Assembly (NCBI GenBank): GCA_934096125.1
Contig: CAKOLB010000004.1
Coordinates: forward strand, 55,117 to 119,116
Source of the DNA: an uncultured Bacilli bacterium
GTDB lineage: Bacteria; Bacillota_I; Bacilli_A; RF39; UBA660
Reading direction: 5' to 3'
DNA length: 64,000 nt
The notes beneath the pieces are model-generated. The model was not told the DNA's origin. It did not search any database and saw nothing but the letters and a program-made list of their open reading frames with translations. Position numbers and translations under genes: made by a program. Below, piece after piece: positions 47,336 to 63,133 of this stretch; within the stretch, counting starts at the first letter, position 1, and the number at the start of each line of letters is the position of its first letter.

Positions 47336-47364
47336 ATAAAAAAACTTATCGTTGTGATAAGTTT

Positions 47365-47904: not shown

Positions 47905-48134
47905 TTAAACCACCTCTAAAATGCTTTCTTCCAATAACATAATACCATAACGAAAATTAAAAAGCAATAATTTTGTCGGTTATTCTTGACAAAATTATAA
48001 TTACAATGTATATTATAGTTGTCGGGCAATCTTGACAAAAAAGGGGGATAGTAATAAAGTAGATTGCTAATGCGACTAATGTTCTTTGAAAATTTACACA
48101 AGTCTTTAAAGGTTAATTAAAAGGGGGTGATAGC

Positions 48135-48638
48135 ATAACAGAATCTATAAAAGATGGGTTTTGGATTATACCTGCAAAAGTAGGTATAGATGATGCACTC
48201 ACATTACAAGATAAATTACTATATGCTCAAATCTTATCATTAACAAGACAAGATGGATTCTGTTTTGCTACTAATTCTTATCTATCTAATTTAAATAATG
48301 TTACTCCAAAAACAATTTCTAACAGTATTTCTAATCTTAAAAAAAATAATTATATACGAGTTGAATATCACAAGGAAAAAATAAATAAAGATAAAAGAAA
48401 AATATTTGTAACTGATAAGGGGGTATGGAAAACAAATCCTGGGGATATAGAAAAAAATGTTAATACCGGTATGGAAGATAATTTCCAATATAATAATATA
48501 AAGAATAAAAAGATAAAAAAATATAATACCAATAATAATGTTCCTTGGTGGCTAGATAAAGAAATTAAAGAAAATCCTGCATCTCTAGAAGAACAAGCAG
48601 AGATGGAAGCACTACTAAGCGAATTTAAAAAAGATTGA
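48135..48638 (+). CDS. Winged-helix replication-initiator-like protein whose start codon position is occupied by ATA (paralog of 52602-52895)
   Basis: The frame is open from 48117 to 48638 with no ATG, GTG or TTG in the first ~105 codons. The RBS AAAGGGGGTGAT sits 6 nt before ATA 48135. The translation aligns with the element-2 paralog (DGFWIIP...LLYAQILSLTRQDGFCFAT versus EGYVVMG...LLSIMLSLPDTWCYST), which starts with ATG at the equivalent position. Confidence 0.45.
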   Translation: MTESIKDGFWIIPAKVGIDDALTLQDKLLYAQILSLTRQDGFCFATNSYLSNLNNVTPKTISNSISNLKKNNYIRVEYHKEKINKDKRKIFVTDKGVWKTNPGDIEKNVNTGMEDNFQYNNIKNKKIKKYNTNNNVPWWLDKEIKENPASLEEQAEMEALLSEFKKD

Positions 48639-48937
48639 AAAGGAGTTGGTTTTATAAATAAATACAAGACTAAATCATAAAATTTAATAAAAAGGAAAAG
48701 GGGGAATTATAAGAATGGAGGTAGTACTTAAGGCAAAACACACATTTAAAACTGATATATCAAACGAAGAATTATTTAGAGATAGATTTAACGAGATATT
48801 GTTAAAAGTTATATTGCATCTTGAGCAAAATTACCAAAGTAGTTAAAAAAATTATAAATAACTATCAAAAAGGGGTATAATATAAGTTGTAGTCGATTTA
48901 GTTCTGATAGTTATACACAGAATTGGAGGATATAACT

Positions 48938-50533
48938 ATGAGACTAAGAGTTGGTATTTATGGGAGGTTATCACAAGAGGATATAGATAAGATAAACAAA
49001 GAAGATGAAAGTGAAAGTATCCAAAATCAAAAAAGAATGTTATTAGAGTATGCTTTAAAAAATGATTGGGATGTAGTTGATATTTATATTGATGAAGATT
49101 ATTCAGGTGCTGGAGTTTATAGACCAGAGTTTGAGAGAATGCTAAAAGATTGTGAAAATGGAAAACTAGATATAGTTTTATGTAAGAGTCAATCAAGATT
49201 CTCGAGAGATATGGAAATAATTGAAAGATATATAAATAACAAATTTAAAGAATGGAATGTTAGATTTATTAGTTTAGTAGATAATATAGATACTGATAAT
49301 AAATCTAATAAGAAATCTATTCAAATATTAGGACTAACTAATGAATGGTATTTAGAAGATTTATCAGATAACATTAAAAGAACAATTAGGAATAAAAAAG
49401 AGTCTGGACAATTTACTGGTTCATTTGCTCCCTATGGTTATTTAAGAAGTGAAGAAGATAAACACAAATTAGTTATTGATCCTATTGCTTCAATCATTGT
49501 TAAAAAGATATTTGAAATGTATAAACAAGGTAATGGTTATACTAAAATAGCAACTTATTTGAATGATACTAATGTTCCTAGTCCTTATGAACACAAAAAA
49601 GCAAGTGGTAGTAAATTTGTATGTGGAAATGTTGGAAAGGAAAAATCATATTGGTATTCAGATACAATTGCTAAAATCTTAAAAGATGAAGTATATATTG
49701 GAAATCTAGTACAAGGAAAAACAAGGCATATAAGTTATAAAAATAAAAAATCAGTTCCTGTTCCTAAAGAAGATTGGATAATTGTTAAAAACACACACGA
49801 ACCTATAATAGATGAAGATACTTGGAATATAGTTTCTGCTAAATTTAAAGGTAGGACAAAGCCAAGTAAATCTGGGGAAATTCATATGTTTACTAAAAAG
49901 GTTTATTGTGATTGTTGCAAAAAAATATTTTATAATGGTTATTCTAAATCAGGAAATGGGAACAAGCATTATTATTTAACTTGTAAGTCTAGAAAATCAG
50001 GGGTGTTTTGTGAAAATAATCTATCTATTAGAGTAGATAAATTAAAAGACTTTATCCTTAATGAGATTAATGAATATATCAAAGTTTATCATAATTCTAA
50101 AGCTTTAAATGAGAAATACCAAAAATTAAATACTAAGAATAATAAAAATGAGATTCAAGAACAAATTAAAACTTTGGAAAAACAACAAACTGAATTAGAA
50201 AAATCACAAAGTAAAAAGAATTCTTATTTAAGAAAATTATATGAAGATAGAATAGAGGGTTTCATTACTGATGAGCAATACAAAGCTTTTAGTAAAGACT
50301 ATGATGATGAATTAAATGAATTGCAAAACAGAATTCAATTAATAAAAGATGAAATCACTCTCTTAAATCAAAGGCACAGTGATATGATTGATAGAGATAA
50401 AATATTTAATAAATATAAATCTATAAAGGAATTAGATAGAAGTATATTAGATGATTTTATAGAAAAAATATATATCGGTGCAGTAGATAAAGAAACGAAT
50501 GAACGAGAAATAAATATTGTATGGGCCATATAA
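48938..50533 (+). CDS. Large serine recombinase (TnpX-like resolvase/integrase) of element 1
   Basis: N-terminal catalytic domain (RVGIYGRLSQED... with the serine in YGRLS, and ...SRFSRD), followed by a recombinase domain and a Cys-rich zinc ribbon (CDCCKK...CKSRKSGVFC). ATG 48938 has a GGAGGA RBS. Confidence 0.9.
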   Translation: MRLRVGIYGRLSQEDIDKINKEDESESIQNQKRMLLEYALKNDWDVVDIYIDEDYSGAGVYRPEFERMLKDCENGKLDIVLCKSQSRFSRDMEIIERYINNKFKEWNVRFISLVDNIDTDNKSNKKSIQILGLTNEWYLEDLSDNIKRTIRNKKESGQFTGSFAPYGYLRSEEDKHKLVIDPIASIIVKKIFEMYKQGNGYTKIATYLNDTNVPSPYEHKKASGSKFVCGNVGKEKSYWYSDTIAKILKDEVYIGNLVQGKTRHISYKNKKSVPVPKEDWIIVKNTHEPIIDEDTWNIVSAKFKGRTKPSKSGEIHMFTKKVYCDCCKKIFYNGYSKSGNGNKHYYLTCKSRKSGVFCENNLSIRVDKLKDFILNEINEYIKVYHNSKALNEKYQKLNTKNNKNEIQEQIKTLEKQQTELEKSQSKKNSYLRKLYEDRIEGFITDEQYKAFSKDYDDELNELQNRIQLIKDEITLLNQRHSDMIDRDKIFNKYKSIKELDRSILDDFIEKIYIGAVDKETNEREINIVWAI

Positions 50534-50576
50534 TTTAGTCCATACAGGACTTGTGTAGAATAAACATAACCTCCAC

Positions 50577-50806
50577 ATGGTGGTGATGATCCGGGGACTA
50601 TTGCAAATGGAATAACTGAAAAAGATTATACTTTGAAGATAACAAATTATATTCACAACAGATTAGATGAACTTGGAGTGCCAAATAAATTATCGAGGAG
50701 TACTGATGAGACTTTAGATGCCAGTAGTAGGCCACAGAGAATACAAAGTCTTTATGGAAATGGGAGTGATGTGATTGTTGTGTCTAATCACATAAATGCA
50801 GGGGGA
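50577..50806 (+). pseudogene. Segment B (~75 codons) of the interrupted amidase gene, lying between the two elements
   Basis: HGGDDPGTIANGITEKDYTLKITNYI...VIVVSNHINAGG is the Amidase_3 core. The frame then runs into element 2 (QDA, stop). Confidence 0.7.
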
Positions 50807-50928
50807 CAGGACGCGTAATATGTGGTTAATCGTAGGCGCAGTGTATAACTTTAATAAGCTTCTTATTTTACTGTATATGATGGTATAATAGATATATCAA
50901 ATAACTTTAAAGATGAGAGGTGAAAAGA

Positions 50929-51840
50929 ATGTTATATATAACTGGTGATACTCATGGAGATTTTTATAGATTTGGTCATTTAGGATTAAATGAAGGTGAT
51001 ATTATGATTATCTTAGGGGATGTGGGTATTAATTATTACTTAGATGAATATGATAAAAAGTTAAAGGAAAGATTAAAAAGATATAATTTTAAATTTTTCT
51101 GTATTCAAGGTAATCATGAAAAAAGACCAGAAAATATTTCAAGTTACCACGAAGTGGAAATGTTTGGCGGTAAAGTATTTGTAGAAGATGAATATCCTAA
51201 TTTAGTATTTGCTAAAAATGGAGAACTTTATAATATTGATGACAAAAGTATTTTAGTAATAGGTGGAGCTTATTCTATTGATAAAGATTATAGAATAAGT
51301 AAAGGATATCCTTGGTTCAAAGATGAACAATTAACTGAGAAAGAGAGACTAAATATATTGGACGAGTATTCTGGTAAACATGTGGATATAATTTTATCTC
51401 ATACTTGTCCATTAAGATATGAACCTAAAGAAAGCTTTAAATTAAGTTTGCCACAGATTGCGATAGATAAATCTATGGAGTATTTTCTAAATGAAGTAGA
51501 GCAAAGAGTAGATTATGGTAAATGGTATTGTGGACATTATCATTTAGAAAAAATTGTGGACAAGTTAGAGTTTATGTTTGGAAGAATTAAAAGTGTTGAC
51601 ACAGGAGAATTTATTCCTAAATATGATTTCCATAATGGCTACAAAATAGTTAGAGATGTATGTAGTCAAAAAGATTATAAATATTGTCCTGAATGTAAAG
51701 GAGATAATATAATTATAGAAAAAGGTGAAGGACATAATATTAATGGTTTAGATTTTATTGCTATCATTTGTAATGATTGTAAAAAAGTTTATGGATTTAA
51801 TGATGTTAATTATAAACGTAATTGTCCTAAAGAATTGTAA
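50929..51840 (+). CDS. Calcineurin-like metallophosphoesterase with C-terminal zinc ribbon
   Basis: GDTHGD and GNHE motifs. C-terminal CPECKG...CNDCKK. Confidence 0.65.
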   Translation: MLYITGDTHGDFYRFGHLGLNEGDIMIILGDVGINYYLDEYDKKLKERLKRYNFKFFCIQGNHEKRPENISSYHEVEMFGGKVFVEDEYPNLVFAKNGELYNIDDKSILVIGGAYSIDKDYRISKGYPWFKDEQLTEKERLNILDEYSGKHVDIILSHTCPLRYEPKESFKLSLPQIAIDKSMEYFLNEVEQRVDYGKWYCGHYHLEKIVDKLEFMFGRIKSVDTGEFIPKYDFHNGYKIVRDVCSQKDYKYCPECKGDNIIIEKGEGHNINGLDFIAIICNDCKKVYGFNDVNYKRNCPKEL

Positions 51841-51914
51841 CTGTGTTTACCAAATTTTAAAATTTATGCTATAATTAAGATGTAATAATTATTTGACTAA
51901 GTGTGGTGAGTAGT

Positions 51915-52550
51915 ATGGAGTATAGAAAATATTCATTTAGACATGCAGAAGATATTTTTAAAAACGATAAGGATTTTACTTATTTATGGAATGAAATTTT
52001 GGAAGTGCTTGATAGTATAAGCGATGATGATTTAATTAATGAATTTAACATTGAAACTAGAAAAGCAAAAAGCATTTCCGAAGCAATTAATAAATTAATT
52101 GCAAAAAGGCTAAGTGAAAAAGGATGGCATGAACAAAGTTACATTTTTGCTGACCCTGATTATTCTGATAATAAAGGTACATGGAGATTAGATTTTGCAA
52201 AAGATAATATTGCAATTGAAGTTGCATTTAATCATGGAGGAAATGTATCTTGGAATTTAATTAAGCCAGTATTATCTAGTGAATTAAATCATGTTAAAAA
52301 GGCAATACAAACTCAAGCTGGCGTTGTCATAACAGCAACTGATGCTATGAAAAAAGCCGGTGGATTTGATAATGCTATCGGTACCTATGAAAAATATGTT
52401 GAATATCTAAAACCATTAAATAATTTGTTAACCACACCTATGATGATAATAGGATTAGAACCACCAAAAAAGTTTACTATTGAGCAGAAAAAAGAAGATG
52501 GTAAAATGGTTGGACATGTTAAATTAAAAGAAGAAGATAATAACTTTTAG
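51915..52550 (+). CDS. Hypothetical protein, possibly a BglII/BstYI-family type II restriction endonuclease
   Basis: From memory, the block RLDFAKDNIAIEVAFNHGGNVSWNLIKPVLSSELNHV resembles the BglII active-site region (D-x9-E-V-Q/x...EL-H). The gene sits beside a GATC-type R-M pair. This is an unverified recollection. Confidence 0.3.
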   Translation: MEYRKYSFRHAEDIFKNDKDFTYLWNEILEVLDSISDDDLINEFNIETRKAKSISEAINKLIAKRLSEKGWHEQSYIFADPDYSDNKGTWRLDFAKDNIAIEVAFNHGGNVSWNLIKPVLSSELNHVKKAIQTQAGVVITATDAMKKAGGFDNAIGTYEKYVEYLKPLNNLLTTPMMIIGLEPPKKFTIEQKKEDGKMVGHVKLKEEDNNF

Positions 52551-52601
52551 ACTTACAATTTTGTGAGTCTTTTTATTTTGAAAAAGAAAGGATACGATAT
52601 T

Positions 52602-52895
52602 ATGAAAATAAAAACAAATAGAGAAGAGGGTTATGTAGTTATGGGTAACTATCATCTAAGAGATAAAAAATTAAGCTTAAAAGCAAAAGGACTATTATCT
52701 ATAATGTTGTCATTACCAGACACATGGTGTTATTCCACGCTAGGATTATCTAGTATTTGTGTTGAAAGCAGGGATACAGTTAGAAATATATTAAAAGAAT
52801 TAAAGGAAGCAAAATATTTAAAGGTAGTTGAAAATAGAGATGAAAATGGTAGATTTAATTATGAATATGTAATTTATGAAAAACCCTATATGTAA
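52602..52895 (+). CDS. Small winged-helix replication-initiator-like protein (paralog of the 48135-48638 ORF)
   Basis: MKIKTNREEGYVVMGNYHLRDKKLSLKAKGLLSIMLSLPDTWCYST. Confidence 0.45.
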   Translation: MKIKTNREEGYVVMGNYHLRDKKLSLKAKGLLSIMLSLPDTWCYSTLGLSSICVESRDTVRNILKELKEAKYLKVVENRDENGRFNYEYVIYEKPYM

Positions 52896-53069
52896 TAATC
52901 CATGGTATCATTACGGTTACATGGATTTCCGTATGCGGTTATTTATTCACAATAAATTATTTAGAAGTAATTAATAAAACAAATAGATAAAGTCGATAAA
53001 ACCTCTATCGATTCAAAAAAAGAGAAGGTTTTATAGTATAATTTCTCTTTTCATTGGTTAATTTAGCTA

Positions 53070-54467
53070 TTAAATAAATTCTTTTAATATATTTTCTAAG
53101 TATTTACTATTTAACCAAAAACAATGCTTTGTATATTCAGCTAATCCTGTTAACTTGTCTTTTACAGGTAATGGCAAAGTATCTTTTGAGTCTCTAGCAT
53201 GTGGTCTAACATGGCAAACTCCATTATCCCCGATTCCTGGAAAGTTAGTATTTCTTTTACCCATATTATCAATTGATTTAATAATATTTCCAGATAAAAT
53301 AATGTTTTTTGTATTATTCCACATATTTTTCACTTCATTTTCAAGTGTTAGTTCTGGCATGTTCCATAATTTTATACCACTAAAGATATAATCATTATCT
53401 TTCTTTTTAAATATAAAGAACATGTATTTTGTAGTTTCTAATTCTTCTTTTAACTTTGATTCTTCCCAATCAGTTGTTTTAAAATCCATATAATTGAAAT
53501 ATGGAAAAGGCATAGATTCTTTAATGTGTCCATTTTCTTCAACTCTGATTGTTCTTGGAACTATATTTGCTTTTTGGAATTCATCAGTATCACGAAGTCT
53601 AGATTTAACATTAAACATTCTAGCTATCAGTATTCCATTTAAATTTTTTGCATTAGAATCAATATTAAATTCATGCATTAATTGTTTTTGAGTTTTCCCC
53701 TGATATTTCTTGGTAACATTTTCAACAAATTCAGTAAATGATTCACCAGCATTTTTAATAACTTTTTCAACATCTTCATAATTTCCAATATATTTTCTAA
53801 CGAGTCCTGTCATATAAGAAGTTTTTAAACAAAATGCTCTTTGCTTTGCTTTAATTGATGAAAAAGGTTGTTCTCTAACGGATTTTTTATTTGCTCCTTT
53901 TGTACAAGCACCAAGATACATTGTATCTGCTTCTGATATCTCATGGGCTTTTCCTTGTTTAATTTTATTAATTATTGTTTCCCAATCCTTAATAATTATT
54001 GGTAAATCTTCTTTTGGAAATGTAAATAATAACTCGTGTGTTATTCTTAAATCATTTTTATTTTTGTGAGGTTCGTAAAAATACCAAATTATTTGAATTT
54101 TATTATTTTTAAACCAAAAATGACTAGAGTAAAATTCATTTTTATATTCATCCATATAATTAATTATGTTTAGAACAAGTCTTTCTTTAGCTGATAAAGT
54201 ATTGTCTTTGTTTTTCTTATACGGTGTAACTTTAAGTTCTATTCCCGCATCAATAAAGTCAGGCGCAGATATTGAATTAATGTTGTATCCATATACATTA
54301 GTTTCAAATAAATGACCAAAGAAAGCTTTATTAAACTTTTCATCATCTTTGTTATATTCATTGTTATAAATAGTTGTTACATTCATATTATTTAATTCTT
54401 TAAAAGTTTTTCCTAATGCACTTTTAGCTAAAATTTGAATTTCATCTTTTGTGTAACTTTTTGCCAT
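53070..54467 (-). CDS. Sau3AI-like type II restriction endonuclease (MutH-like fold, GATC-type)
   Basis: 465 aa with a Sau3AI/MutH-like N-terminal pattern (LAKSALGKTF...FFGHLFE...GIELKVTP). It is divergent from a cytosine-5 methyltransferase gene. Confidence 0.6.
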   Translation of the reverse strand: MAKSYTKDEIQILAKSALGKTFKELNNMNVTTIYNNEYNKDDEKFNKAFFGHLFETNVYGYNINSISAPDFIDAGIELKVTPYKKNKDNTLSAKERLVLNIINYMDEYKNEFYSSHFWFKNNKIQIIWYFYEPHKNKNDLRITHELLFTFPKEDLPIIIKDWETIINKIKQGKAHEISEADTMYLGACTKGANKKSVREQPFSSIKAKQRAFCLKTSYMTGLVRKYIGNYEDVEKVIKNAGESFTEFVENVTKKYQGKTQKQLMHEFNIDSNAKNLNGILIARMFNVKSRLRDTDEFQKANIVPRTIRVEENGHIKESMPFPYFNYMDFKTTDWEESKLKEELETTKYMFFIFKKKDNDYIFSGIKLWNMPELTLENEVKNMWNNTKNIILSGNIIKSIDNMGKRNTNFPGIGDNGVCHVRPHARDSKDTLPLPVKDKLTGLAEYTKHCFWLNSKYLENILKEFI

Positions 54468-54636
54468 AAAAATTTCCTTTCGATCTTGTTTTTATCTCAA
54501 AAATAATTTAAAATATATATATAGTGTTGATCTTTTTAAAATATTATTTTATAATTAATATGTAAGAAGTTGATCTTTTCGCTTAAATATATTATAATAT
54601 ATTTAAATATGTTTAACAATTATTAGGAGGCGTTTT

Positions 54637-55875
54637 ATGCAAAAAACAGTAGTAGAATTATTTGCCGGTGTTGGTGGATTTAGATGTGGATTAAATAATG
54701 TAAAATTAAAAGATAATAAAGTTATTGAAAAAGGTAATTGGAATTTTGTGTGGGCGAATCAATGGGAACCTTCTACTAAAACACAAGAGGCTTTTGAATG
54801 CTATTCAAAAAGATTTGGAAAGGATGATGTTAGTAATGTAGATATATTTCAAGTAAATAAAAAAGAGATACCTAATCATACTTTATTAGTTGGTGGTTTT
54901 CCATGTCAAGATTATTCTGTTGCACAGACACTATCTAATAGCAAAGGAATTGATGGAAAAAAAGGTGTTTTGTGGTGGGCAATTGCAGATATATTAAAAG
55001 TTAAGAAACCTCCATTTGTGTTTTTAGAAAATGTTGATCGCTTACTTCTTTCGCCAGCGAGTCAAAGAGGCAGAGATTTTGGAATAATTTTGAGAAGTTT
55101 TTATGAAAATGGATATGATTTAGAATGGCGAGTTATCAATGCGGGAGAATATGGATTTCAACAAAAACGTAGGAGAATTTATATAATTGCATATCACAAA
55201 TCAACTAAATATTGTAAGAAAATGAGAAAAATTGATAAGAAAAATATATTACTTAAGGAAGGTATTTTCATAAAACAGTTTCCTGTAAAAGAGAAAGAGT
55301 TTAACTCAAATGTATCAAGTATTTCAGAATATAAAGATTTAGTCGATGTTAGTGATAATTTTAAAAACCAATTTTATAATTCTGGAGTTATGATAAATGG
55401 TGAAATATATACTGCCAAATTAGAACATAATTGCGATAGTGTATATCAGTTAGGCAATTTAATAGAAACTAATAAGGTTGATGAAAAATATTTCCTTTCA
55501 AAAGATAGAATTGAGAAATTTAGAATATTAAAGGGAAGTAAAAGAATACCTAGAAAAAAGCCAAATGGAGATGATTACATTTATTCTGAAGGTTCAATGC
55601 CATTTCCTGATAATCTAAATGTTCCTGCTAGAACAATGCTGACTTCAGAAAGTGGAACTAGCAGAATGACACATGTTATAGAGGACTATAGAACTAAAAA
55701 ATTAAGATTTTTAACACCATTAGAGTGTGAAAGAATTAATGGATTTCCAGATAATTGGACAAATACTGGGATGAGTGATAAGAAACGATATTTCATGATG
55801 GGTAACGCTTTAGTAGTAAATGTTGTTGAAAAAATAGGGATTGAATTGGAAAAAATAGTAGAAATGGAAGAGTAA
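54637..55875 (+). CDS. DNA (cytosine-5)-methyltransferase
   Basis: Motif I LFAGVGG, motif IV GGFPCQDYS, motif VI ENV (FLENVDRL), and a C-terminal target-recognition region. Confidence 0.9.
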   Translation: MQKTVVELFAGVGGFRCGLNNVKLKDNKVIEKGNWNFVWANQWEPSTKTQEAFECYSKRFGKDDVSNVDIFQVNKKEIPNHTLLVGGFPCQDYSVAQTLSNSKGIDGKKGVLWWAIADILKVKKPPFVFLENVDRLLLSPASQRGRDFGIILRSFYENGYDLEWRVINAGEYGFQQKRRRIYIIAYHKSTKYCKKMRKIDKKNILLKEGIFIKQFPVKEKEFNSNVSSISEYKDLVDVSDNFKNQFYNSGVMINGEIYTAKLEHNCDSVYQLGNLIETNKVDEKYFLSKDRIEKFRILKGSKRIPRKKPNGDDYIYSEGSMPFPDNLNVPARTMLTSESGTSRMTHVIEDYRTKKLRFLTPLECERINGFPDNWTNTGMSDKKRYFMMGNALVVNVVEKIGIELEKIVEMEE

Positions 55876-55984
55876 ATGAAAAAATGTTAAAATTTGGTAA
55901 TTTATCTAAATAGTGTTATAATTTTATACAGAAGATATGCAGTATTTGTCTTTTTAAGATGGATACTGCATTTTTTTGAAGTAG

Positions 55985-56950
55985 GTGGTAGTATTGGATT
56001 CACTTAATTATGAAGTTTTTAAAAAAATAAAGAAATATTATAATGATAATTGCAAACCTTTAATTTTTGTTGGAGAAAAATTATTATCGCAGAATAACAA
56101 ATGTAAAATGTATTTTTGTGATGTTGATTTAAATCAAGAAAAAGAAAATTATAGAAAAGTTTTTCAAGAATATTTGGCACTTTATGTTAGAAATCATGAT
56201 TTGCTAAAATATTATGATAAGATTATAAAAAGTGAAACAGAAGATGAAATTTCAGAAGCTTTAATTTATTATGGAAATGATTTGTGGAATAATACCGTAT
56301 TGATAACTACAACTACACCAGAGACTTTAGGGATATATGGAGAAGCCATTAATGATTTTTATTTAAATATTGTTAAGAATGAAAATATAATTATCACTTA
56401 TTCAGCAAAAAGGGGGTATGGTGAACGTAATATAAAAGGGGTAGATGTAGTTGCATGTACTTGGAAAAAAGATAATCTTGTACTAATATTTTCTGAGTGT
56501 AAATTTGTCGAATCAATATATAAGGCGTCGTGTGGTTTATATAATGATATAAAGGGAACTCAATATGAATTGGCACATATAAGTAAAGATTATATAAACG
56601 GATATTCTACTTATATTGTTGATAATGCTCATTCAATTTTTGCAGAGAGTAATAATTCAGATAAAATTATAGATGTTTTGGACAAATTGAATAGTAGGAT
56701 AATAAATGGAAACAAGGCGATAGATGTGTTTAATGAATTAAACATAAAAATTCAATTTAATTTCTTTGCAATTTACTGTGATAATAAATTTACACCAGAT
56801 GAAAGACAAATAATGTTTGAAAAAGTATATAATGCTTTTTATGAAAATGTAAAATTAACAGGTATTAAAAATTATGATATGGAAATTGTGTATATACCTA
56901 TTAAAAATACAAGCTCTGTGGTAAAGGAATGTATGAGACAATGGAATTGA
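55985..56950 (+). CDS. HamA-like (DUF1837-type) protein with a PD-(D/E)xK motif; Hachiman-like component A
   Basis: GVDVVACTWKKDNLVLIFSECKF gives D...(E)xK spacing typical of PD-(D/E)xK nucleases. It lies immediately upstream of, and overlaps, an SF2 helicase gene. The TTG or GTG start follows an AGGTGG RBS. Confidence 0.45.
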   Translation: MVVLDSLNYEVFKKIKKYYNDNCKPLIFVGEKLLSQNNKCKMYFCDVDLNQEKENYRKVFQEYLALYVRNHDLLKYYDKIIKSETEDEISEALIYYGNDLWNNTVLITTTTPETLGIYGEAINDFYLNIVKNENIIITYSAKRGYGERNIKGVDVVACTWKKDNLVLIFSECKFVESIYKASCGLYNDIKGTQYELAHISKDYINGYSTYIVDNAHSIFAESNNSDKIIDVLDKLNSRIINGNKAIDVFNELNIKIQFNFFAIYCDNKFTPDERQIMFEKVYNAFYENVKLTGIKNYDMEIVYIPIKNTSSVVKECMRQWN

Positions 56951-59322
56951 CACGAAATACAATTGTAAAGAAAATAAATTTATTTTCAATGGAAAGGAAT
57001 AATAAAGAATTAATAAATCTACTATGTGATATTTTAGAAAGTAAAAATTACATGGATAATTATGATCTTATTTTAATTATAATAAATATTGCCGAACTTT
57101 ATGGTTATCAAGAATTTTTTAATAATTTTGATGCAAATAGTATACCTAAATATAACGTGCATGCAATATCTAATGATATTAGAAAAAATCTATATAAAAG
57201 CAAAAAAGGTAATAATATATATTATAATTCTGGACAATTATCTTTATTAAAAGAATTATCACTATATGATAAGCTTTTTATATCAGCTCCCACGTCATTT
57301 GGTAAAACCAGTTTAGTTTTAGAGCATATAGCAATGAATAACTCAATATATAAAACTATTATTTTTTTAGCTCCAACTAATGCATTAGTAGAAGAATTGT
57401 ATCTAAAATTTTTAAAATTAAATAAAGAATGTAATTTAAATTATGATGTAATAACAATGCCAAAAAATAAAAATAATAATACAATATGGATATTAACACC
57501 AGAGAAATTTTTACTTTTGGTTGAAGAAAAAAGTATAGATTTTGATTTGATAGTTATGGATGAGGCTTATAAAATTGAAAATGAAGAATCAATTGATAGA
57601 AAAGATATTTTAAATTCTAGGTCAAGCAAATATAGGAAAGTAATGGAATATATGGCTAATTCTAATTCGAAGATTATATTTTTATCTCCATATACTTATA
57701 ATAAGGCGCCATCTATGACAAGATTCTTAAAAAAATATAGTATCAAGGATATTGACAGGAATATTAATTATGTAAAAAAAGACATAATAGATATTTATGA
57801 TAGCAAAAGTTATAAAAGTAATTTTTCCAATAGTATATTTAGTATTAAAAAAGGTGATTCTGGGATTAAAAAAGCAATGGCAGCTGTTCCCTATTTATCT
57901 GATAATACAATTATATATGTAAAATATCCAAGTGAGGCAATAAAAGTTTTAGAATTAATGCCTAATGAAAAAGCAAGTATAGATAATGAAAGATTTAAAA
58001 AATTTTTGAACCATTTAAAAGAAAATTATTTATTTGAAGACAGCAATTGGTATATTATAGATGCTCTAGAAAAGGGAATTGGCATATATGTATCACCTAT
58101 TCCTCGATATATAAAAAAAGAAATAATATATTTATTTAATAAGGGAATAATAAAAAAACTTATAGTTACAACTGCATTTGCTGAAGGAGTTAATAGTTCA
58201 GCTAAGAACATAATTATAACAAATAGAATAACAGGATCTAATAAAAAACTAACTAATTTGGATATATTGAATTTAAGTGGTAGAGCAGGCAGATTTGGTG
58301 TATATAGCAAAGGAAAAGTTTTTTCTGCAGTTGAAGAAGTAAGTGATATTTTAAGAAAATCATCTGAAAATGGAGTAATTATAAATAATCCTAATTACGA
58401 ATTAGCAAGTGATATTATACCTAGAACTGATTATGAAATCGATATGATAGATGATTATCTATTAAATGAAGAAGAAAAAAATATAAAGGAAACCACAAAA
58501 AAAAGGCAATTAAATTTTAATTTGACCAACGATGATTTAAATATAGCTTTATCAATTGCAAATGAAATAAAAATCGATGTATATTCATATTTTTTTGAAA
58601 CAATTAACAATGGAAAAATTCAAGATATAAGATTTAATAATATTAAAAATTTATTGTCTACAGAGAAAAATGATATTATAAAATCAATTACATTTATTTT
58701 TAACGAATTAAAAAATGCAGATATTCCAATAGTTTCAGATTTTGGTGATATTAATCCATTTAATAGTAAAGGTGATTTTATTTGGGGCATTTTTTACGGA
58801 ATCCACTCTTCAGGAAATATTAGAGATGTTTTGAAATCAAGAAAAGGCTTTATTTTAAAACAGTTAAGTGAAATTGAAAAAATATTAAATTTAAAACTTA
58901 AAAATTTTAATAATAAAGAAATAGAAAAAATATTACGTGAGTACGATAAAAAATGGATATACGATTATTTAACTAAAGGTGAAATTGATGATGCAAAACT
59001 ATATAATGGTGCATTTAAATTTATATCAAACATAATTGAATATAGAATACCATTTTATATTGGATTGTATATATCAGTTTTTAAAATGTTTTGTAGAAAG
59101 AATAATTTAAATTATGATTTTAATTTTGATATTGTTGAAATATCTACATCATTAGAAAATAAAAATATAGAAAAAAAGTATTCTGATATGTTGGAATTTG
59201 GCATACCATTAGATACAATCAAAAAGATAAATAAATTTAAAAATGATAATAATATTTTTGAAATATTAGATGATTATGAAAAAATTATGTTAAGTGAATA
59301 TAATTACTATTTTGATAAATAA
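56929..59322 (+). CDS. SF2 DExH-type helicase, HamB-like (Hachiman-like component B)
   Basis: Motif I APTSFGKTS, motif II VMDEAY and motif VI SGRAGRFG. 797 aa, overlapping the upstream gene by 22 nt. Confidence 0.5.
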   Translation: MYETMELTRNTIVKKINLFSMERNNKELINLLCDILESKNYMDNYDLILIIINIAELYGYQEFFNNFDANSIPKYNVHAISNDIRKNLYKSKKGNNIYYNSGQLSLLKELSLYDKLFISAPTSFGKTSLVLEHIAMNNSIYKTIIFLAPTNALVEELYLKFLKLNKECNLNYDVITMPKNKNNNTIWILTPEKFLLLVEEKSIDFDLIVMDEAYKIENEESIDRKDILNSRSSKYRKVMEYMANSNSKIIFLSPYTYNKAPSMTRFLKKYSIKDIDRNINYVKKDIIDIYDSKSYKSNFSNSIFSIKKGDSGIKKAMAAVPYLSDNTIIYVKYPSEAIKVLELMPNEKASIDNERFKKFLNHLKENYLFEDSNWYIIDALEKGIGIYVSPIPRYIKKEIIYLFNKGIIKKLIVTTAFAEGVNSSAKNIIITNRITGSNKKLTNLDILNLSGRAGRFGVYSKGKVFSAVEEVSDILRKSSENGVIINNPNYELASDIIPRTDYEIDMIDDYLLNEEEKNIKETTKKRQLNFNLTNDDLNIALSIANEIKIDVYSYFFETINNGKIQDIRFNNIKNLLSTEKNDIIKSITFIFNELKNADIPIVSDFGDINPFNSKGDFIWGIFYGIHSSGNIRDVLKSRKGFILKQLSEIEKILNLKLKNFNNKEIEKILREYDKKWIYDYLTKGEIDDAKLYNGAFKFISNIIEYRIPFYIGLYISVFKMFCRKNNLNYDFNFDIVEISTSLENKNIEKKYSDMLEFGIPLDTIKKINKFKNDNNIFEILDDYEKIMLSEYNYYFDK

Positions 59323-59636
59323 AATCATGTCCGTTGACTGTCCTATAAATTTATGGTAAAATGGTAATATAGGATAAGTGTAAGAGATGCAAATTTATGA
59401 GAGGATTTTCCCTCTTTTTTTGTGTCTTTAAAAAAAATTATCTTTTTGAAAGAAAGGTAAATTTTATCTAAAATATTCTAAACTGTCGGAGACTATTAGT
59501 GGGTTTTAGGGATATTCCCTAACAAGCTAGATGGGTGTGTATACACCATGCTTGATATATTATATTACACGGGTATGTAACCTCAAAATAGGATTTAATG
59601 GTAATCTGAAATGTGGTATGAAATGAAAGGAGAAAT

Positions 59637-60209
59637 ATGGAATTTAAGTCAATGGAGAAGTGGCGTGTTTTACAGAAGTTTAAAATTAGCGAAAAACAGT
59701 ATAAGAGATTAGTGAAAAGATTAAAAAGAAGACATCCTAATGAAAGATGGATTGATGAACATTTTGCTCAAAATGGTGAAAGAGTAGTATATCTAAAATT
59801 AGAATTTGTAGAATGGATAGAAGAAGTTTATTTAAATAACAATCTATTTTATTTAGATGCTGAAATTGTTTTCTTTAAAAAGCAAATATTAAGACTAGAA
59901 GATGAATTAAATTTTCCTCATAGTGGGTTTGAATATGAAGATATATCTTTAAAAGATTTAAGGGAGTATTTTAATAAGAGTAAAGATGTGATAGGTGTTG
60001 CAATAAATAGAATGGAAAAGAGAAATGATAAATCATTCAAGTATATAAAAGATGCTAAAGTTATGATTAATAAAGAAGGCGTTAAATGGTTAAGTGAAAA
60101 CTATTTCCGTAAAGATTATTTAAAAAAGTTAGAATTTTATAAATTAGAACTTCAAAATGTTAAGAGAAAAAGAAATAGATTAAAAGAATATAGTATTTTC
60201 TATTACTAA
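59637..60209 (+). CDS. Hypothetical basic protein upstream of the recombinase (possible recombination directionality factor or regulator)
   Basis: 190-aa ORF, Lys/Arg-rich, with no recognised motif. Confidence 0.3.
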   Translation: MEFKSMEKWRVLQKFKISEKQYKRLVKRLKRRHPNERWIDEHFAQNGERVVYLKLEFVEWIEEVYLNNNLFYLDAEIVFFKKQILRLEDELNFPHSGFEYEDISLKDLREYFNKSKDVIGVAINRMEKRNDKSFKYIKDAKVMINKEGVKWLSENYFRKDYLKKLEFYKLELQNVKRKRNRLKEYSIFYY

Positions 60210-60463
60210 CTAGATTAGTTTGGAATATAACTAATTTTTTTATGTCCTAATTTTGATAATAAAGTCTTATAGTTGTTCTTATTTCATAAAATGAAAGGAG
60301 AGGTGTAGATTAGTGAATATAACTGAAACTTTCGATAAAGATAAAAACTTGGTTGAATTAATAGAGGAGTATTTAAAATTGATGTTAGAAAATAGTAAGC
60401 AATAAGAGTTTGTGATATAATGATATTGCTTATTGAAGTTATACACGTTGGAAGGAGTAGTAA

Positions 60464-62089
60464 GTGTATAACAATGTAATACAAGCACCAAGTTTTTATA
60501 GAGTAGGTATATATATCAGATTATCAGAAAGTGATGAAGATAAAACTTATGAGTCAGAGAGTGAAAGTATAATCAATCAAAGAAATTTATTAATGGATTA
60601 TGTAAAAATGAGTGGATTTACTTTGGTTGATGAGTATGTAGATGATGGATTTACAGGAACTAACTTTGATAGGCCTTCTTTTCAAAGATTATTAAAAGAT
60701 ATTGAAAGTGGTCGAATCAATTGTGTAATCACAAAAGACTTATCAAGATTAGGTAGAGATTATATTCAATGTGGATATTATGTAGAACAATATTTTCCAC
60801 AAAAGAAAATTAGATATATTTCTATACTAGATCAAGTTGATACATTTCTAGAAAGTGCTAATAATGACATTGCTCCATTTAAAGCTTTGTTTAATGATAT
60901 GACTAGTAAGGATACTTCTAAGAAGATTCGTTCAATATTAAAAAATAAAAAAGAACAGGGTAAATTTATTGGAAGCAAACCATGTTATGGATATATGAGA
61001 GATCCACTTGATAAAGGACATTTAATACCCAATCCAGAAGTTGCTCCTGTTGTTAAAAGGATATTTAAAATGGCTCATTCTGGAACTGGAGTAAGTGATA
61101 TAGTATCATACTTAAATGATAATAAGATATTAAGCCCTAGTATGTATAAAAATACTAAATCATCTTCAAGACAAAAAGTGAATGTATGGACAATATCCTC
61201 AGTCAACAAATTACTAAAAAATAGAATGTATACAGGAGATATGGTACAAAATGTTCAAACTAAGTTAAGTTATAAATCTCAGAAGAAAGTTGCTTTAGAA
61301 AAAGAGTTTTGGATAATAGTTGAAAATACTCATGAACCTCTTGTTAGTAAAACAGTATTTGAAGCAATACAAAATGCTCCTGCTAGAGTAAGGACAACCC
61401 ATTGTAATAGAGAAAAAAGATTATTAGAAAATCTTCTTGTTTGCAAAGAATGTGGAAACTCTTTAAGCGTTCTTTATAGAAAAAATAAAAATTATAAGGG
61501 TGGAAAGTATTGGAGTGTTAATTGCAATAAATATGCAAGAGATCCAAGAAGACATTTGTGCTATCCACACTTCTTTCCTTATGATAAACTAGAAGAAAAA
61601 ATAATGAGTGTTATTAAAACTACTTGTCAAAAATATTTAGATAGTTTAAATATCAAAGAATTATCTGAAAGAGTATTACAAGATAGAGCAAAGGAAAAGA
61701 ATGATAGGCAAAAGGAAAAGCAACAATTATTAAATGAGATTGATGAATTAAAAAGAAAATCTGATGCTTTATATGATGACAAATTTAATGGAATAATAAG
61801 TGTTGATACTTATACAAGAATCTCTGCACAAACTGAAAAACAAATATCAGCCTTAAATTATAGAATTTATGAAATAGATAATGAAGAAAATCAGATTAAA
61901 GAAGATACAAAAGAAATAACTAAATATGAAGAACAAATAAAATCACTTTTAAATTTAGATGAACCCAACAGAGAACTCATAAAAACTTTAGTAAAAAAAA
62001 TTTATATAGATAAAGATAGAAATATAGAAATTCAATATAGATTTAAGGTGCTAGATGATATAAAAACTAATTATGAAGAAATAAATTAA
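60464..62089 (+). CDS. Large serine recombinase (TnpX-like) of element 2, GTG start
   Basis: RVGIYIRLSESDED (catalytic Ser) ...SRLGRD, a recombinase domain, a zinc ribbon CKECGN...CNKYARDPRRHLC and a C-terminal coiled coil. RBS GGAAGGAG. Confidence 0.9.
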   Translation: MYNNVIQAPSFYRVGIYIRLSESDEDKTYESESESIINQRNLLMDYVKMSGFTLVDEYVDDGFTGTNFDRPSFQRLLKDIESGRINCVITKDLSRLGRDYIQCGYYVEQYFPQKKIRYISILDQVDTFLESANNDIAPFKALFNDMTSKDTSKKIRSILKNKKEQGKFIGSKPCYGYMRDPLDKGHLIPNPEVAPVVKRIFKMAHSGTGVSDIVSYLNDNKILSPSMYKNTKSSSRQKVNVWTISSVNKLLKNRMYTGDMVQNVQTKLSYKSQKKVALEKEFWIIVENTHEPLVSKTVFEAIQNAPARVRTTHCNREKRLLENLLVCKECGNSLSVLYRKNKNYKGGKYWSVNCNKYARDPRRHLCYPHFFPYDKLEEKIMSVIKTTCQKYLDSLNIKELSERVLQDRAKEKNDRQKEKQQLLNEIDELKRKSDALYDDKFNGIISVDTYTRISAQTEKQISALNYRIYEIDNEENQIKEDTKEITKYEEQIKSLLNLDEPNRELIKTLVKKIYIDKDRNIEIQYRFKVLDDIKTNYEEIN

Positions 62090-62218
62090 ATAATAAAAAT
62101 AGGGTGGTAAAATTTGGTAATCACACAATCTTACCATCCCCTATACTATTTTTAGAAAAAATAAAAACGCAGTAAAATCAAGAAAAATGATAGCCTAATC
62201 ACATAAAATCTTTCCGGA

Positions 62219-63133
62219 GGTGGCGATGGTGCAGAAGTAATATATGCTCTTAGAAATAATGATGTATTTGCAAGTAAAATTGCAAGAGAACTAGAGAGTG
62301 CAGGACAAAATATTAGAAAATATTATCAGAGAAGACTTCCAAGTAATCCAGCGAAAGATTATTATTATATAATGCGAGATACTCCTAATAATGAAACTGT
62401 AATTGTAGAGTATGGGTTTGCAGATTCTACTGGTGATGATGTTGAGCAGTTAAAAAATACTTGGGAAAACTTAGCAGAAGCGGTGGTTAAAGCAATTACT
62501 GAGTATGCTGGCGGTACTTATACACTTCCAAATACGGGCAATTATTACATAGTTAAAAGTGGTGATAGTCTATGGAGCATATCCAAAAAAACAGATGTTT
62601 CTATTGCCAAGATTAAGGAACTTAATAATCTTAAGAGTAATTTGTTAAGTATTGGTCAGAAATTAACATTACCACAAACAAGTGAAGATACCCCATCGCT
62701 AGATACATATATTGTTCAAAAAGGCGATAGTTTATATAAAATCGCTAACAAGTTTAATACTACTGTTGATAACTTAAAACTTATTAACAATCTTCAAAGC
62801 AATAATTTAGCTATAGGTCAAAAATTAAAGGTAAGTAGTAGTGAAAACAAATACACAGTGCAAAAAGGTGATACACTATACAGCATTGCCACTAAATTTT
62901 CTGTTAGTGTAGATTCATTAAAAAACGCTAATAATTTAGTTAGTAACACAATTGCCGTTGGTCAATCCTTAATTATCCCAGAACAAAAAACAACTAAAAC
63001 TTATACGGTTCAAAAAGGCGATAATCTTTATAGCATAGCAAGGCGATATAATACGACTGTAAATACAATAATGTCTTTAAATAATCTAGCTTCAACTAAT
63101 TTAACTATCGGTCAAAAGCTACTTGTTCCGTAA
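62219..63133 (+). pseudogene. Segment C (~305 codons) of the interrupted amidase gene: Amidase_3 C-terminal part plus four LysM repeats
   Basis: DGAEVIYALRNN...YIMRDTPNNETVIVEYGFADS, then four LysM repeats (YIVKSGDSLWSIS..., YIVQKGDSLYKIA..., YTVQKGDTLYSIA..., YTVQKGDNLYSIA...). It is in frame with segment B across the GA junction. Confidence 0.75.

What the first reader, a model, noticed from the sequence alone, without database searches (positions are those of the whole stretch)
51915..55875. Possible three-gene GATC-core R-M module: a Sau3AI-like REase and a C5-MTase plus a second BglII/BstYI-like REase candidate
The cytosine-5 methyltransferase gene (54637-55875) and the divergent Sau3AI/MutH-like endonuclease gene (53070-54467) form a classic GATC-type pair. 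Two genes away, the 215-aa ORF 51915-52550 has a block (DFAKDNIAIEVAFN...SELNHV) that, from memory, resembles the BglII active-site region. BglII (AGATCT) and BstYI (RGATCY) sites contain GATC. A single GAT(m5C) methylase could therefore protect against both enzymes. One modification enzyme serving two restriction enzymes would be an uncommon arrangement.
Basis: partly seen in the sequence, partly recalled or inferred. Interest (0 to 1): 0.55.

Follow-up and report, generated by a model that had tools for sequence, protein, structure and literature searches.

The report
One methylase, two GATC-type restriction enzymes
A mobile defence island in a gut Bacilli genome carries one cytosine methylase next to two unrelated restriction-enzyme genes, one Sau3AI-type and one BglII/BstYI-fold, and this small BglII-like enzyme turns out to be the habitual partner of that methylase family across many bacterial phyla.

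Summary
53070-54467(-) is a Sau3AI-family endonuclease (NCBIfam equivalog, 497 bits). 54637-55875(+) is a C5 DNA methyltransferase. 51915-52550(+) is a full-length Pfam Endonuc-BglII (PF09195) protein, and the only significant PDB matches of its model are BglII, BstYI, BamHI and OkrAI.

The link to the methylase is not chance. In 80 species-level genome loci encoding a relative of the BglII-like protein, 72 have an ortholog of this methylase in the cluster, nearly all directly adjacent. Twelve of these also carry a Sau3AI-like gene. Two plasmids of 4-5 kb encode only this enzyme, the methylase and rep.

GATC specificity of the methylase is supported by the Sau3AI partner, by a conserved TTGATC -35 box in its own promoters, and by GATC depletion (observed/expected about 0.3).

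Two points are open. The BglII-like subfamily has Ala/Gly/Ser where BglII has the third catalytic residue Gln, and its exact site is unresolved (GATC, AGATCT or RGATCY). A Vsr-like repair role is disfavoured, because canonical Vsr genes co-occur in four clusters.

The module lies on an 11.4-kb serine-recombinase island together with Hachiman. Verdict: a real, recurrent type II R-M architecture with two restriction enzymes and one methylase. The parts belong to known families; the arrangement and the subfamily are uncharacterised. Interest is moderate.

The parts
51846..51875 (+). Putative own promoter of the BglII-like gene (TTTACC, 18-bp spacer, TATAAT). It contains no GATC.
   Evidence: Read directly from the sequence; inference only.
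51915..52550 (+). BglII/BstYI-fold type II restriction endonuclease candidate, 211 aa. Conserved N59, D93 and E102, with Ala104 where BglII and BstYI have Gln.
   Evidence: PF09195 at 45 bits. BstYI alignment. AF2 model with pLDDT 76, whose Foldseek top hits are BglII, BstYI, BamHI and OkrAI. Family-wide residue conservation. dN/dS 0.06-0.09.
52602..52895 (+). Small winged-HTH protein (HTH_36, 97 aa) resembling the N-terminus of phage/plasmid replication initiators. It is not a conserved part of the module.
   Evidence: Pfam HTH_36. PHROG replication-initiator families. Absent from three-gene loci of other taxa such as L026.
53070..54467 (-). Sau3AI-family type II restriction endonuclease, 465 aa. 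MutH-like N-terminal domain with PDF...GIELK (D-x6-E-x-K).
   Evidence: NF040973 equivalog at 497 bits, full length. PF02976 MutH E = 3e-30. Motif read from the translation.
54468..54636 (.). Divergent R/M control region holding 3 of the window's 44 GATC sites (54482, 54529, 54572). Two tandem M promoters have TTGATC as the -35 box (54527-54532 and 54570-54575), a 17-bp spacer and TATAAT (54550-54555 and 54593-54598). The motif ACAAGATCGAAA lies in the leader of the R gene.
   Evidence: Sequence. The same architecture occurs in L007 and L022. There are 45 TTGATC in 72 M-upstream regions, against 1 in 80 BglII-like upstream regions.
54637..55875 (+). C5 cytosine DNA methyltransferase, 412 aa, with inferred specificity GATC (GATm5C). 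It is the shared modification enzyme.
   Evidence: PF00145, TIGR00675 and PADLOC MTase_II at 550 bits. Motifs FAGVGGF, PCQ, ENV, QKRRR and GNAL are visible in the translation. Orthologs lie next to the BglII-like gene in 72 of 80 loci.
50755..62335 (+). The carrier: an ~11.4-kb integrative island that splits an Amidase_3/LysM gene. Gene order: metallophosphoesterase, BglII-like, HTH_36, Sau3AI-like, M, HamA, HamB, a 190-aa ORF, and a large serine recombinase (60464-62089).
   Evidence: 99.6% identical over 11.58 kb to L102, which has different flanks. The intact amidase of L003 aligns to 50576-50839 and to 62213-63130.

Best explanation
This is a type II restriction-modification module in which one C5 methyltransferase serves two independent restriction endonucleases of unrelated folds.

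**How it most likely works.**
- The methyltransferase (54637-55875) methylates the cytosine of GATC (GATm5C) throughout the host DNA.
- That protects the host against both nucleases: a Sau3AI-family enzyme (53070-54467, cutting GATC) and a BglII/BstYI-fold enzyme (51915-52550).
- The BglII-like enzyme cuts either GATC itself or a GATC-containing hexamer such as AGATCT or RGATCY.
- Incoming DNA without GATm5C is cut by either nuclease.
- The BglII-like enzyme and the methylase are an old, self-sufficient R-M pair. The Sau3AI-like gene, or in other lineages a different nuclease, is a second restriction activity sharing the same methylase.
- The methylase gene is probably autoregulated through its own target site, which forms the -35 box (TTGATC) of its two promoters.

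**Shown here:** family and fold assignments, gene linkage across 80 genomes, conservation of the metal-binding residues, purifying selection, the conserved promoter architecture, and GATC depletion.

**Inferred:** catalytic activity, the exact recognition site, blockage by m5C, and promoter regulation by methylation.
For: **1. Family and fold.** PF09195 at 45 bits, full length. Profile match to BstYI. The only significant Foldseek PDB hits are BglII, BstYI, BamHI and OkrAI, all of which cut xGATCx sites.

**2. Linkage.**
- 72 of 80 species-level loci from Bacillota, Actinomycetota, Bacteroidota and other phyla carry an ortholog of this methylase (40-83% identical, full length). In most it lies within 300 bp of the BglII-like gene, in any orientation.
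- The distance matrices of the two proteins correlate (Mantel r = 0.69, n = 72, p = 0.0005).

**3. Self-sufficiency.** Macrococcus plasmid CP124581.1 (4757 bp) and Staphylococcus simulans plasmid NZ_CP095106.1 (4050 bp) encode only the BglII-like enzyme, the methylase and rep. Both plasmids contain GATC sites.

**4. Recurrence of the triple.**
- 12 of the 80 genome loci carry a full-length Sau3AI-like gene in the same cluster.
- On Priestia plasmid pBEH1 a Sau3AI + dcm pair lies 10 kb from a BglII-like gene.
- The window's cassette is found 99-100% identical in many metagenome contigs.

**5. Function is retained.** D93 is conserved in 101 of 109 cluster representatives and E102 in 95 of 109; N59 is also conserved. 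dN/dS is 0.06-0.11.

**6. GATC specificity of the methylase.**
- Its partner is a Sau3AI equivalog.
- TTGATC forms the -35 box of M promoters in Firmicutes and Coriobacteriia.
- It is 53% identical to the M. hyorhinis homolog beside Sau3AI-family genes, in a species with demonstrated GATm5C methylation (PMC4636357).

**7. GATC avoidance.**
- Observed/expected is 0.25-0.30 in the window, the lowest of all 4-bp palindromes.
- GATT/AATC is not in excess (0.90), so selection fits better than m5C deamination.
- AGATCT is the most depleted 6-bp palindrome under the order-2 model.
Against: - **Active site.** The residue at the position of BglII Gln95 / BstYI Gln130 / BamHI Glu113 is Ala here. Across the whole subfamily it is Ala, Gly or Ser, never Gln, Glu or Lys. 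Catalysis would therefore need a relocated or absent third residue. No member of the subfamily has been assayed, as far as the held literature shows.
- **Redundancy.** A second nuclease for a GATC-containing site looks redundant beside Sau3AI, which already cuts every GATC.
- **Solitary copies.**
  - In about 8 of the 80 loci, no M ortholog was found in the fetched DNA. Three of these (L037, L079, L094) end within 600 bp of the gene and are therefore indeterminate.
  - The other five include the 90-92% identical chromosomal copy in related gut Bacilli, which is under purifying selection. Four no-M loci were checked (L034, L051, L079, L091) and none has any other kind of methylase adjacent.
  - This requires a methylase elsewhere in those genomes, or a function that is harmless without one.
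- **Host avoidance is inconsistent.** Two-gene hosts L007 and L025 show no GATC or AGATCT depletion.
- **No direct reference comparison.** I could not compare the methylase with the M.Sau3AI reference sequence.
Confidence: 0.7

Rival explanations
1. The BglII-like protein is a catalytically dead, GATC-binding derivative of a restriction enzyme. It would act as a regulator or methylation sensor of the M/R genes, or as another DNA-binding accessory, so the module would have only one real nuclease (Sau3AI-like).
For: The third catalytic residue is missing across the subfamily, replaced by Ala/Gly/Ser. GATC sites lie in the -35 boxes of the M promoters, and a shared ACAAGATCGAAA motif lies in the R leaders. 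Solitary copies without an adjacent methylase are kept under purifying selection. The protein is unusually well conserved for a restriction enzyme (47-60% identity across phyla).
Against: The metal-ligand residues D93 and E102, and N59, are almost invariant, which an inactive binder would not need. Most loci hold only M plus this gene. Two 4-5-kb plasmids carry nothing but M, this gene and rep, which is the classic footprint of an addictive R-M pair. In characterised REases the third position varies widely (K, E, Q, N; PMC4081073).
Confidence: 0.12
2. The BglII-like protein is a Vsr-like mismatch nickase. It would repair T:G mismatches created by deamination of GATm5C, travelling with the C5 methylase as Vsr travels with Dcm.
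For: Tight linkage to the methylase rather than to a particular nuclease, small size, an atypical active site and high conservation.
Against: Canonical Vsr genes (PF03852, 66-78 bits) sit inside the same clusters in L049, L052, L057 and L053, alongside the BglII-like gene. The protein has no Vsr profile match. Its fold relatives are all dimeric double-strand cutters. The window shows no deamination signature at GATC.
Confidence: 0.04
3. The proximity is coincidental. The BglII-like gene is an unrelated solitary or decayed restriction gene that merely sits in the same defence island as a classic two-gene Sau3AI R-M system.
For: It is separated from the pair by an unrelated HTH gene and has its own promoter. 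Defence islands pile up unrelated systems, and Hachiman lies next door.
Against: 72 of 80 independent loci pair this family with orthologs of this methylase. The two proteins co-diverge. The ORF is intact and under purifying selection.
Confidence: 0.04

Closest known systems
BglII and BstYI restriction endonucleases (Pfam PF09195; PDB 1d2i, 1vrr), and R.Nph3I (RGATCY)
   Same: Same Pfam family above threshold and same fold. Similar size (203-223 aa). Conserved Asn/Asp/Glu of the active site on the same strands. All characterised relatives cut sites with a GATC core.
   Different: Only about 20% identical. The third catalytic residue Gln is replaced by Ala/Gly/Ser throughout the subfamily. The partner methylase is a C5 enzyme; M.BglII is an N4-cytosine enzyme (own knowledge), and M.Nph3I makes m6A. 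No C-protein gene is present. The recognition site is unknown.
Sau3AI R-M system (R.Sau3AI + M.Sau3AI, GATC/GATm5C), including the Listeria Sau3AI-like cassettes
   Same: A divergent pair of a Sau3AI-family endonuclease (equivalog score) and a 412-aa C5 methylase, carried on a mobile island, with the host genome depleted in GATC.
   Different: The described Sau3AI-like cassettes are reported as two-gene systems (PMC10059834). Here a second nuclease, of BglII fold, shares the methylase.
CfrBI-type R-M regulation, in which the methylase target site lies inside its own promoter (own knowledge, not checked in the library)
   Same: The methylase's presumed target, GATC, is part of the -35 hexamer of both M promoters. 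This feature is conserved in dozens of orthologous loci.
   Different: The effect of methylation on transcription is untested here. CfrBI uses a different site and a different methylase class.
Dcm-Vsr and other C5-methylase + Vsr pairs
   Same: A small PD-(D/E)XK-type nuclease tightly linked to a C5 methylase.
   Different: No Vsr profile match. Genuine Vsr genes co-occur with the BglII-like gene in four clusters.

Membership tests
BglII/BstYI family (Pfam PF09195 Endonuc-BglII) | Profile match above the curated threshold over the whole domain | tested here: met
   45.2 bits against a cut-off of 26, profile positions 1-162 of 163. PGAP names plasmid homologs 'BglII/BstYI family type II restriction endonuclease'.
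BglII/BstYI family (Pfam PF09195 Endonuc-BglII) | BamHI/BglII-type alpha/beta fold | tested here: met
   AF2 model with pLDDT 76 and pTM 0.78. All 13 significant Foldseek PDB hits are BglII, BstYI, BamHI or OkrAI, with TM 0.51-0.59.
BglII/BstYI family (Pfam PF09195 Endonuc-BglII) | Active site Asn-Asp-Glu-Gln (BglII N69, D84, E93, Q95; BstYI D119, E128, Q130) | tested here: inconclusive
   N59, D93 and E102 are conserved, but the Gln position is Ala104. Among 109 cluster representatives it is A in 71, G in 14 and S in 13, and never Q, E or K. Three of the four residues are met.
BglII/BstYI family (Pfam PF09195 Endonuc-BglII) | Cleaves AGATCT or RGATCY | not testable with these tools
   Only site avoidance could be tested. 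AGATCT is the most depleted 6-bp palindrome under the order-2 model: 1 observed against 27 expected in the window, and 5 against 49 in 124 kb of the lineage. It is only about 2-fold below expectation once GATC depletion is conditioned on (5 against 10.5). Some two-gene hosts deplete every GATC context and others none.
BglII R-M system as characterised (C.BglII + R.BglII + N4-cytosine M.BglII) | Controller protein and an N4-cytosine methylase as partners | tested here: not met
   The partner is a C5 methylase (PF00145). The only small HTH gene nearby is HTH_36, which resembles a replication initiator and is not conserved in related loci. The composition of the BglII system is from own knowledge and PMC4081073.
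Sau3AI family type II restriction endonuclease (NCBIfam NF040973) | Equivalog-level full-length match, including the MutH-like catalytic domain with D-x6-E-x-K | tested here: met
   497 bits against a cut-off of 300, profile positions 3-475 of 475. PF02976 E = 3e-30. PDFIDAGIELK is visible in the translation.
C5 cytosine DNA methyltransferase (PF00145 / TIGR00675) | Profile match and the conserved motifs I, IV (PCQ), VI (ENV), VIII (QxRxR) and X (GNA) | tested here: met
   222 bits and 253 bits. All motifs are present in the translation.
M.Sau3AI-type GATC-specific m5C methylase | Target-recognition domain specific for GATC | tested here: inconclusive
   All evidence is indirect. The partner is a Sau3AI-family nuclease. 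TTGATC -35 boxes are conserved upstream of orthologs. It is 53% identical to the M. hyorhinis homolog next to Sau3AI-family genes, in a species with proven GATm5C. GATC is depleted. No M.Sau3AI reference sequence was available for a direct comparison of the target-recognition domain.
Vsr very-short-patch repair endonuclease (PF03852) | Vsr profile match, or replacement of Vsr in methylase clusters | tested here: not met
   No Vsr match. Canonical Vsr is present together with the BglII-like gene in L049, L052, L057 and L053.

The most novel reading that the evidence does not exclude
The BglII-fold subfamily would be a so far uncharacterised class of GATm5C-sensitive restriction enzymes with a reduced active site (Asp/Glu plus a small residue in place of Gln/Glu/Lys). 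It would be the ancestral partner of the M.Sau3AI-type methylases. These methylases would then act as a shared 'hub' on which unrelated second nucleases are repeatedly stacked: Sau3AI-like in Firmicutes, an unknown 207-aa PD-ExK-like protein in Flavobacteria, and a PLD-family protein in Psychrobacillus. Stacking would give layered restriction that resists single anti-restriction measures. A further possibility is that the solitary chromosomal copies have a function that does not depend on any methylase.
Probability: 0.3. Interest if true: 0.6.

Novelty: new variant of a known kind. Interest (0 to 1): 0.45.

Why it matters
- **Design principle.** If both nucleases are active, this is a naturally recurrent design of one methylase with two unrelated restriction enzymes, not an accident of one genome. 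It bears on how R-M systems diversify, since a broad-specificity methylase makes it cheap to acquire further nucleases. It also bears on how hosts counter phage anti-restriction.
- **Mechanism.** The BglII-like subfamily would add a new active-site variant to a textbook enzyme family. It might also be a new source of GATC-core specificity that is sensitive to m5C.
- **Regulation.** The conserved TTGATC -35 box offers a simple, testable case of methylation-coupled autoregulation of a methylase gene.
- **Annotation.** For annotators the practical message is that 'BglII/BstYI family' hits next to a dcm-like gene should not be read as AGATCT enzymes.

Tried and rejected
1. **Vsr-analogue hypothesis.** Rejected after finding canonical Vsr genes inside four clusters.
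2. **Deamination as the cause of GATC depletion.** GATT/AATC is not enriched (0.90).
3. **Fixing the recognition site from site avoidance.**
   - AGATCT ranks lowest of 64 hexamer palindromes under an order-2 Markov model.
   - Conditioned on pentamers it is only third of 64 in the pooled loci.
   - The per-host pattern is inconsistent: L022-24 deplete all contexts, while L007 and L025 deplete none.
4. **Looking for a named M.Sau3AI among homologs.** The 120 best of 8000 hits carry no informative names. The papers on Mhy3 cloning and on the Listeria cassette are not held.
5. **Literature search** for a characterised BglII-like + Sau3AI + one-methylase system, or for 'BglII-like' GATC enzymes. 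Nothing was found beyond R.Nph3I.
6. **Other profile libraries.** NCBIfam and PHROGs gave no hit for the BglII-like protein. PADLOC gave only a weak REase_II hit. The pentatricopeptide hits in the PDB search are repeat artefacts.
7. **Neighbours of solitary copies.** These are AbiD, a protease, a 572-aa and a 62-aa protein without family matches, and housekeeping genes in Slackia. None is a methylase.
8. **HTH_36 gene as a controller protein.** It is not conserved in other three-gene loci.

Full report
**1. What is at the coordinates**

The window has about 27% G+C and nearly all genes lie on the + strand. Three genes make up the finding.

- **53070-54467 (-)**, 465 aa. It matches the NCBIfam equivalog 'Sau3AI family type II restriction endonuclease' over its full length (497 bits, cut-off 300). 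It contains a MutH domain (E = 3e-30) with the catalytic string PDFIDAGIELK.
- **54637-55875 (+)**, 412 aa. It is a C5 DNA methyltransferase (PF00145 E = 2e-65; TIGR00675 253 bits) with all the canonical motifs.
- **51903/51915-52550 (+)**. It matches Pfam Endonuc-BglII (PF09195) over the entire profile at 45 bits (cut-off 26). Its best real PDB sequence hit is BstYI.
  - An AlphaFold2 model (pLDDT 76, pTM 0.78) has exactly 13 significant Foldseek matches in the PDB. All are BglII, BstYI, BamHI or OkrAI.
  - The true start is ATG 51915 (211 aa). This is supported by the ribosome-binding site and by every homolog.

DFAKDNIAIEVAF aligns with BstYI TDFVKDRVAIEVQF.

**2. Is the BglII-like gene part of the R-M module or a bystander?**

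This was the key question, and comparative data answer it.

*A large, well-conserved family.* The family has more than 2000 sequence clusters at 90% identity and about 400 at 50%.

*Linkage in genomes.* A scan of one genome per species returned 80 loci from Bacillota, Actinomycetota (Coriobacteriia), Bacteroidota and other phyla.
- In 72 of them a full-length ortholog of the window's methylase (40-83% identical) lies in the same cluster. It is usually within 300 bp of the BglII-like gene, in any relative orientation.
- Twelve also contain a full-length Sau3AI-like gene.
- The distance matrices of the BglII-like protein and the methylase are correlated (Mantel r = 0.69, n = 72). In the three-gene loci the Sau3AI-like protein tracks the methylase even more closely (r = 0.91).

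*Minimal plasmids.* Two tiny staphylococcal-type plasmids (4757 and 4050 bp) encode nothing but this nuclease, the methylase and rep. Both contain GATC sites. That is the signature of a self-sufficient R-M pair.

*An unlinked case.* On Priestia plasmid pBEH1 a Sau3AI + dcm pair and a BglII-like gene lie 10 kb apart.

*The window's own cassette.* It is found 99-100% identical in many gut metagenome contigs.

I conclude that the BglII-like enzyme and this methylase family form a long-standing functional pair. The three-gene version is a recurrent variant.

**3. Alternative roles for the small nuclease**

*Vsr-like repair.* Because it tracks a C5 methylase, I tested whether it could stand in for a Vsr mismatch endonuclease. 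It cannot be a simple substitute. Canonical Vsr genes (PF03852, 66-78 bits) occur inside the same clusters in L049, L052, L057 and L053.

*A dead DNA binder.* This is harder to exclude.
- The position of BglII Gln95 / BstYI Gln130 / BamHI Glu113 is Ala here. In 109 full-length cluster representatives it is Ala, Gly or Ser, never a polar catalytic residue.
- Against inactivity, Asp93, Glu102 and Asn59 are almost invariant.
- The gene evolves under strong purifying selection (dN/dS 0.06-0.11).
- The third position is known to vary among active enzymes (K, E, Q, N; PMC4081073).
- Other highly conserved residues (N106, H107, K117, K129, K146) are candidates for a relocated catalytic residue. This is inference.

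**4. Specificity of the methylase**

The evidence is indirect but consistent.
- Its partner is a Sau3AI equivalog.
- The strongest plasmid-collection hit is the M. hyorhinis dcm gene, which lies beside Sau3AI-family genes (53% identity). That species has experimentally demonstrated GATC-specific m5C methylation (Mhy3; PMC4636357). That the two proteins are the same is my inference.
- The 169-bp R/M spacer holds 3 of the window's 44 GATC sites.
- Both M promoters read TTGATC, a 17-bp spacer, then TATAAT. The same layout recurs upstream of orthologs. There are 45 TTGATC in 72 upstream regions of 150 bp, including loci that have only M + BglII-like. The count is 1 in 80 upstream regions of the BglII-like gene.
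- This argues that the whole methylase family, two-gene loci included, recognises GATC. It also suggests methylation-coupled autoregulation, which is inference.

**5. Site avoidance**

*In the window.* GATC is the most depleted 4-bp palindrome (44 observed against 145-179 expected). GATT/AATC is not in excess (0.90), which favours selection over m5C deamination.

*AGATCT.* It is the most depleted of all 64 hexamer palindromes under an order-2 model:
- in the window (1 observed against 27 expected);
- in 124 kb of non-redundant sequence of this lineage (5 against 49);
- in the pooled two-gene loci (72 against 181).

Conditioned on pentamers, the deficit shrinks to about two-fold (5 against 10.5) and is not an outlier.

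*Other hosts.* Two-gene hosts L022-L024 deplete every GATC context (GATC observed/expected 0.18; TGATCA 0 against 13). Hosts L007 and L025 deplete none.

*Family membership does not fix the site.* Another PF09195 member that was annotated as BglII proved experimentally to cut RGATCY (R.Nph3I; PMC10734518).

The recognition site of this subfamily is therefore open. My estimate is GATC about 55%, a hexamer with a GATC core about 30%, and something else about 15%.

**6. Unexplained points**

- About 8 of the 80 loci have no M ortholog in the fetched DNA.
  - Three of them (L037, L079, L094) end within 600 bp of the gene, so they are indeterminate.
  - The rest include a 90-92% identical copy at a fixed chromosomal position in related gut Bacilli, in the order AbiD, HtrA-like protease, a 62-aa ORF, the BglII-like gene, and a 572-aa protein of unknown family.
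  - Four no-M loci were checked (L034, L051, L079, L091) and none has any other kind of methylase adjacent. The Bacilli copy is clearly under selection.
  - Either the methylase lies elsewhere in those genomes, as on pBEH1, or the protein is harmless without it.
- The benefit of a second nuclease beside Sau3AI is not obvious. Possible explanations are Sau3AI's need for two sites, or differing sensitivity to anti-restriction proteins. Both are speculation.
- The BglII-like gene is also accompanied by other second nucleases: a 207-aa ORF without family match in eight Flavobacteria, and a PLD-family protein in Psychrobacillus. 'One methylase plus BglII-like plus another nuclease' may therefore be a general pattern.

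**7. Genomic setting**

- The module lies on an ~11.4-kb island (about 50755-62335).
- The island's gene order is: metallophosphoesterase, BglII-like, HTH_36, Sau3AI-like, M, HamA/HamB (Hachiman), a 190-aa ORF, and a large serine recombinase (60464-62089).
- The island splits an Amidase_3/LysM gene. An intact homolog from L003 aligns to 50576-50839 and to 62213-63130. The same island, 99.6% identical, sits between different flanks in other contigs.

**8. Verdict**

The parts belong to known families, and annotation pipelines would name them correctly. What is not described, as far as I could find, is threefold:
- the systematic pairing of this BglII-fold subfamily with GATm5C methylases;
- its non-canonical active site;
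- the recurrent architecture of two nucleases with one methylase.

This is a new variant of a known kind and of moderate interest.

Noticed in passing
window 55985-59322: A Hachiman defence system lies directly downstream of the methylase. HamB is a DEAD-box helicase (PADLOC 237 bits). HamA/DUF1837 is a weak match only (E = 2e-4, though the precomputed Pfam annotation in L010 also lists HamA).
   Followed up: partly
window ~50755-62335 (recombinase 60464-62089; amidase fragments 50576-50839 and 62213-63130): The R-M module and Hachiman ride on an 11.4-kb island with a large serine recombinase. The island interrupts an Amidase_3/LysM cell-wall hydrolase gene. The same island, 99.6% identical, occurs in contigs with different flanks. 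In related Bacilli the same amidase gene carries other cargo at this position, such as MmeI-like, Dam-like and EcoRI-methylase genes, or Mob_Pre.
   Followed up: partly
window 42374-50533: A second mobile element lies immediately upstream. It holds a Mob_Pre relaxase (42374-43633), an AAA_13 ATPase (43679-45910), an HTH_3 repressor-like gene (47365-47904, minus strand) and another large serine recombinase (48923-50533) that ends where the amidase fragment begins. This looks like tandem insertion at one hotspot.
   Followed up: no
window 54468-54636; L007 7863-8000; M-upstream regions of L022-L098: The methylase promoters use TTGATC as the -35 box (twice in the window), often as GATCTTGATC. This is conserved in Firmicutes and Coriobacteriia orthologs (45 TTGATC in 72 upstream regions). 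It is absent in Bacteroidota, where the M-upstream regions show TAnnTTTG-like motifs instead. It suggests autoregulation by the enzyme's own methylation.
   Followed up: partly
window 54478-54489 (minus strand) and L007 7972-7983: The 12-mer ACAAGATCGAAA lies in the 5' leader of the restriction gene next to M in both loci. In the window that gene is Sau3AI-like, and in L007 it is BglII-like. The control region seems to have stayed with the methylase while the nuclease gene was exchanged.
   Followed up: partly
L001-L006, L013-L021 (BglII-like gene at 8001-8633 in L001): A solitary copy of the BglII-like gene, 90-92% identical, sits at a fixed chromosomal site in related gut Bacilli. It lies between an AbiD-like gene plus HtrA-like protease and a 572-aa protein with no family match. 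No methylase is adjacent, yet dN/dS against the window copy is about 0.06.
   Followed up: partly
L048 8650-9273 and the equivalent ORFs in L061, L065, L069, L071, L077, L082, L086: In Flavobacteria a conserved 206-211-aa ORF lies between the BglII-like gene and the methylase. It has no Pfam, NCBIfam or PADLOC match, but carries a GVDLI...IDEKAQLDY motif that looks like PD-(D/E)xK. It may be another second nuclease sharing the methylase.
   Followed up: partly
L111 1489-2490 (Psychrobacillus glaciei plasmid pPB01): A phospholipase-D-family protein (DrmC/DpdK-like) lies between the methylase ortholog and the BglII-like gene. This is a third kind of possible second nuclease in such clusters.
   Followed up: no
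window 50920-51840: The first gene of the island is a calcineurin-like metallophosphoesterase (phrog_1649, E = 1e-29) with a C-terminal Cys-rich tail. It is conserved in every copy of the island. Its role is unknown.
   Followed up: no
window, whole: GATG/CATC is over-represented (observed/expected 1.59 under the order-2 model) while GATC is at 0.25. This may simply be the compensating codon choice where GATC is avoided.
   Followed up: no
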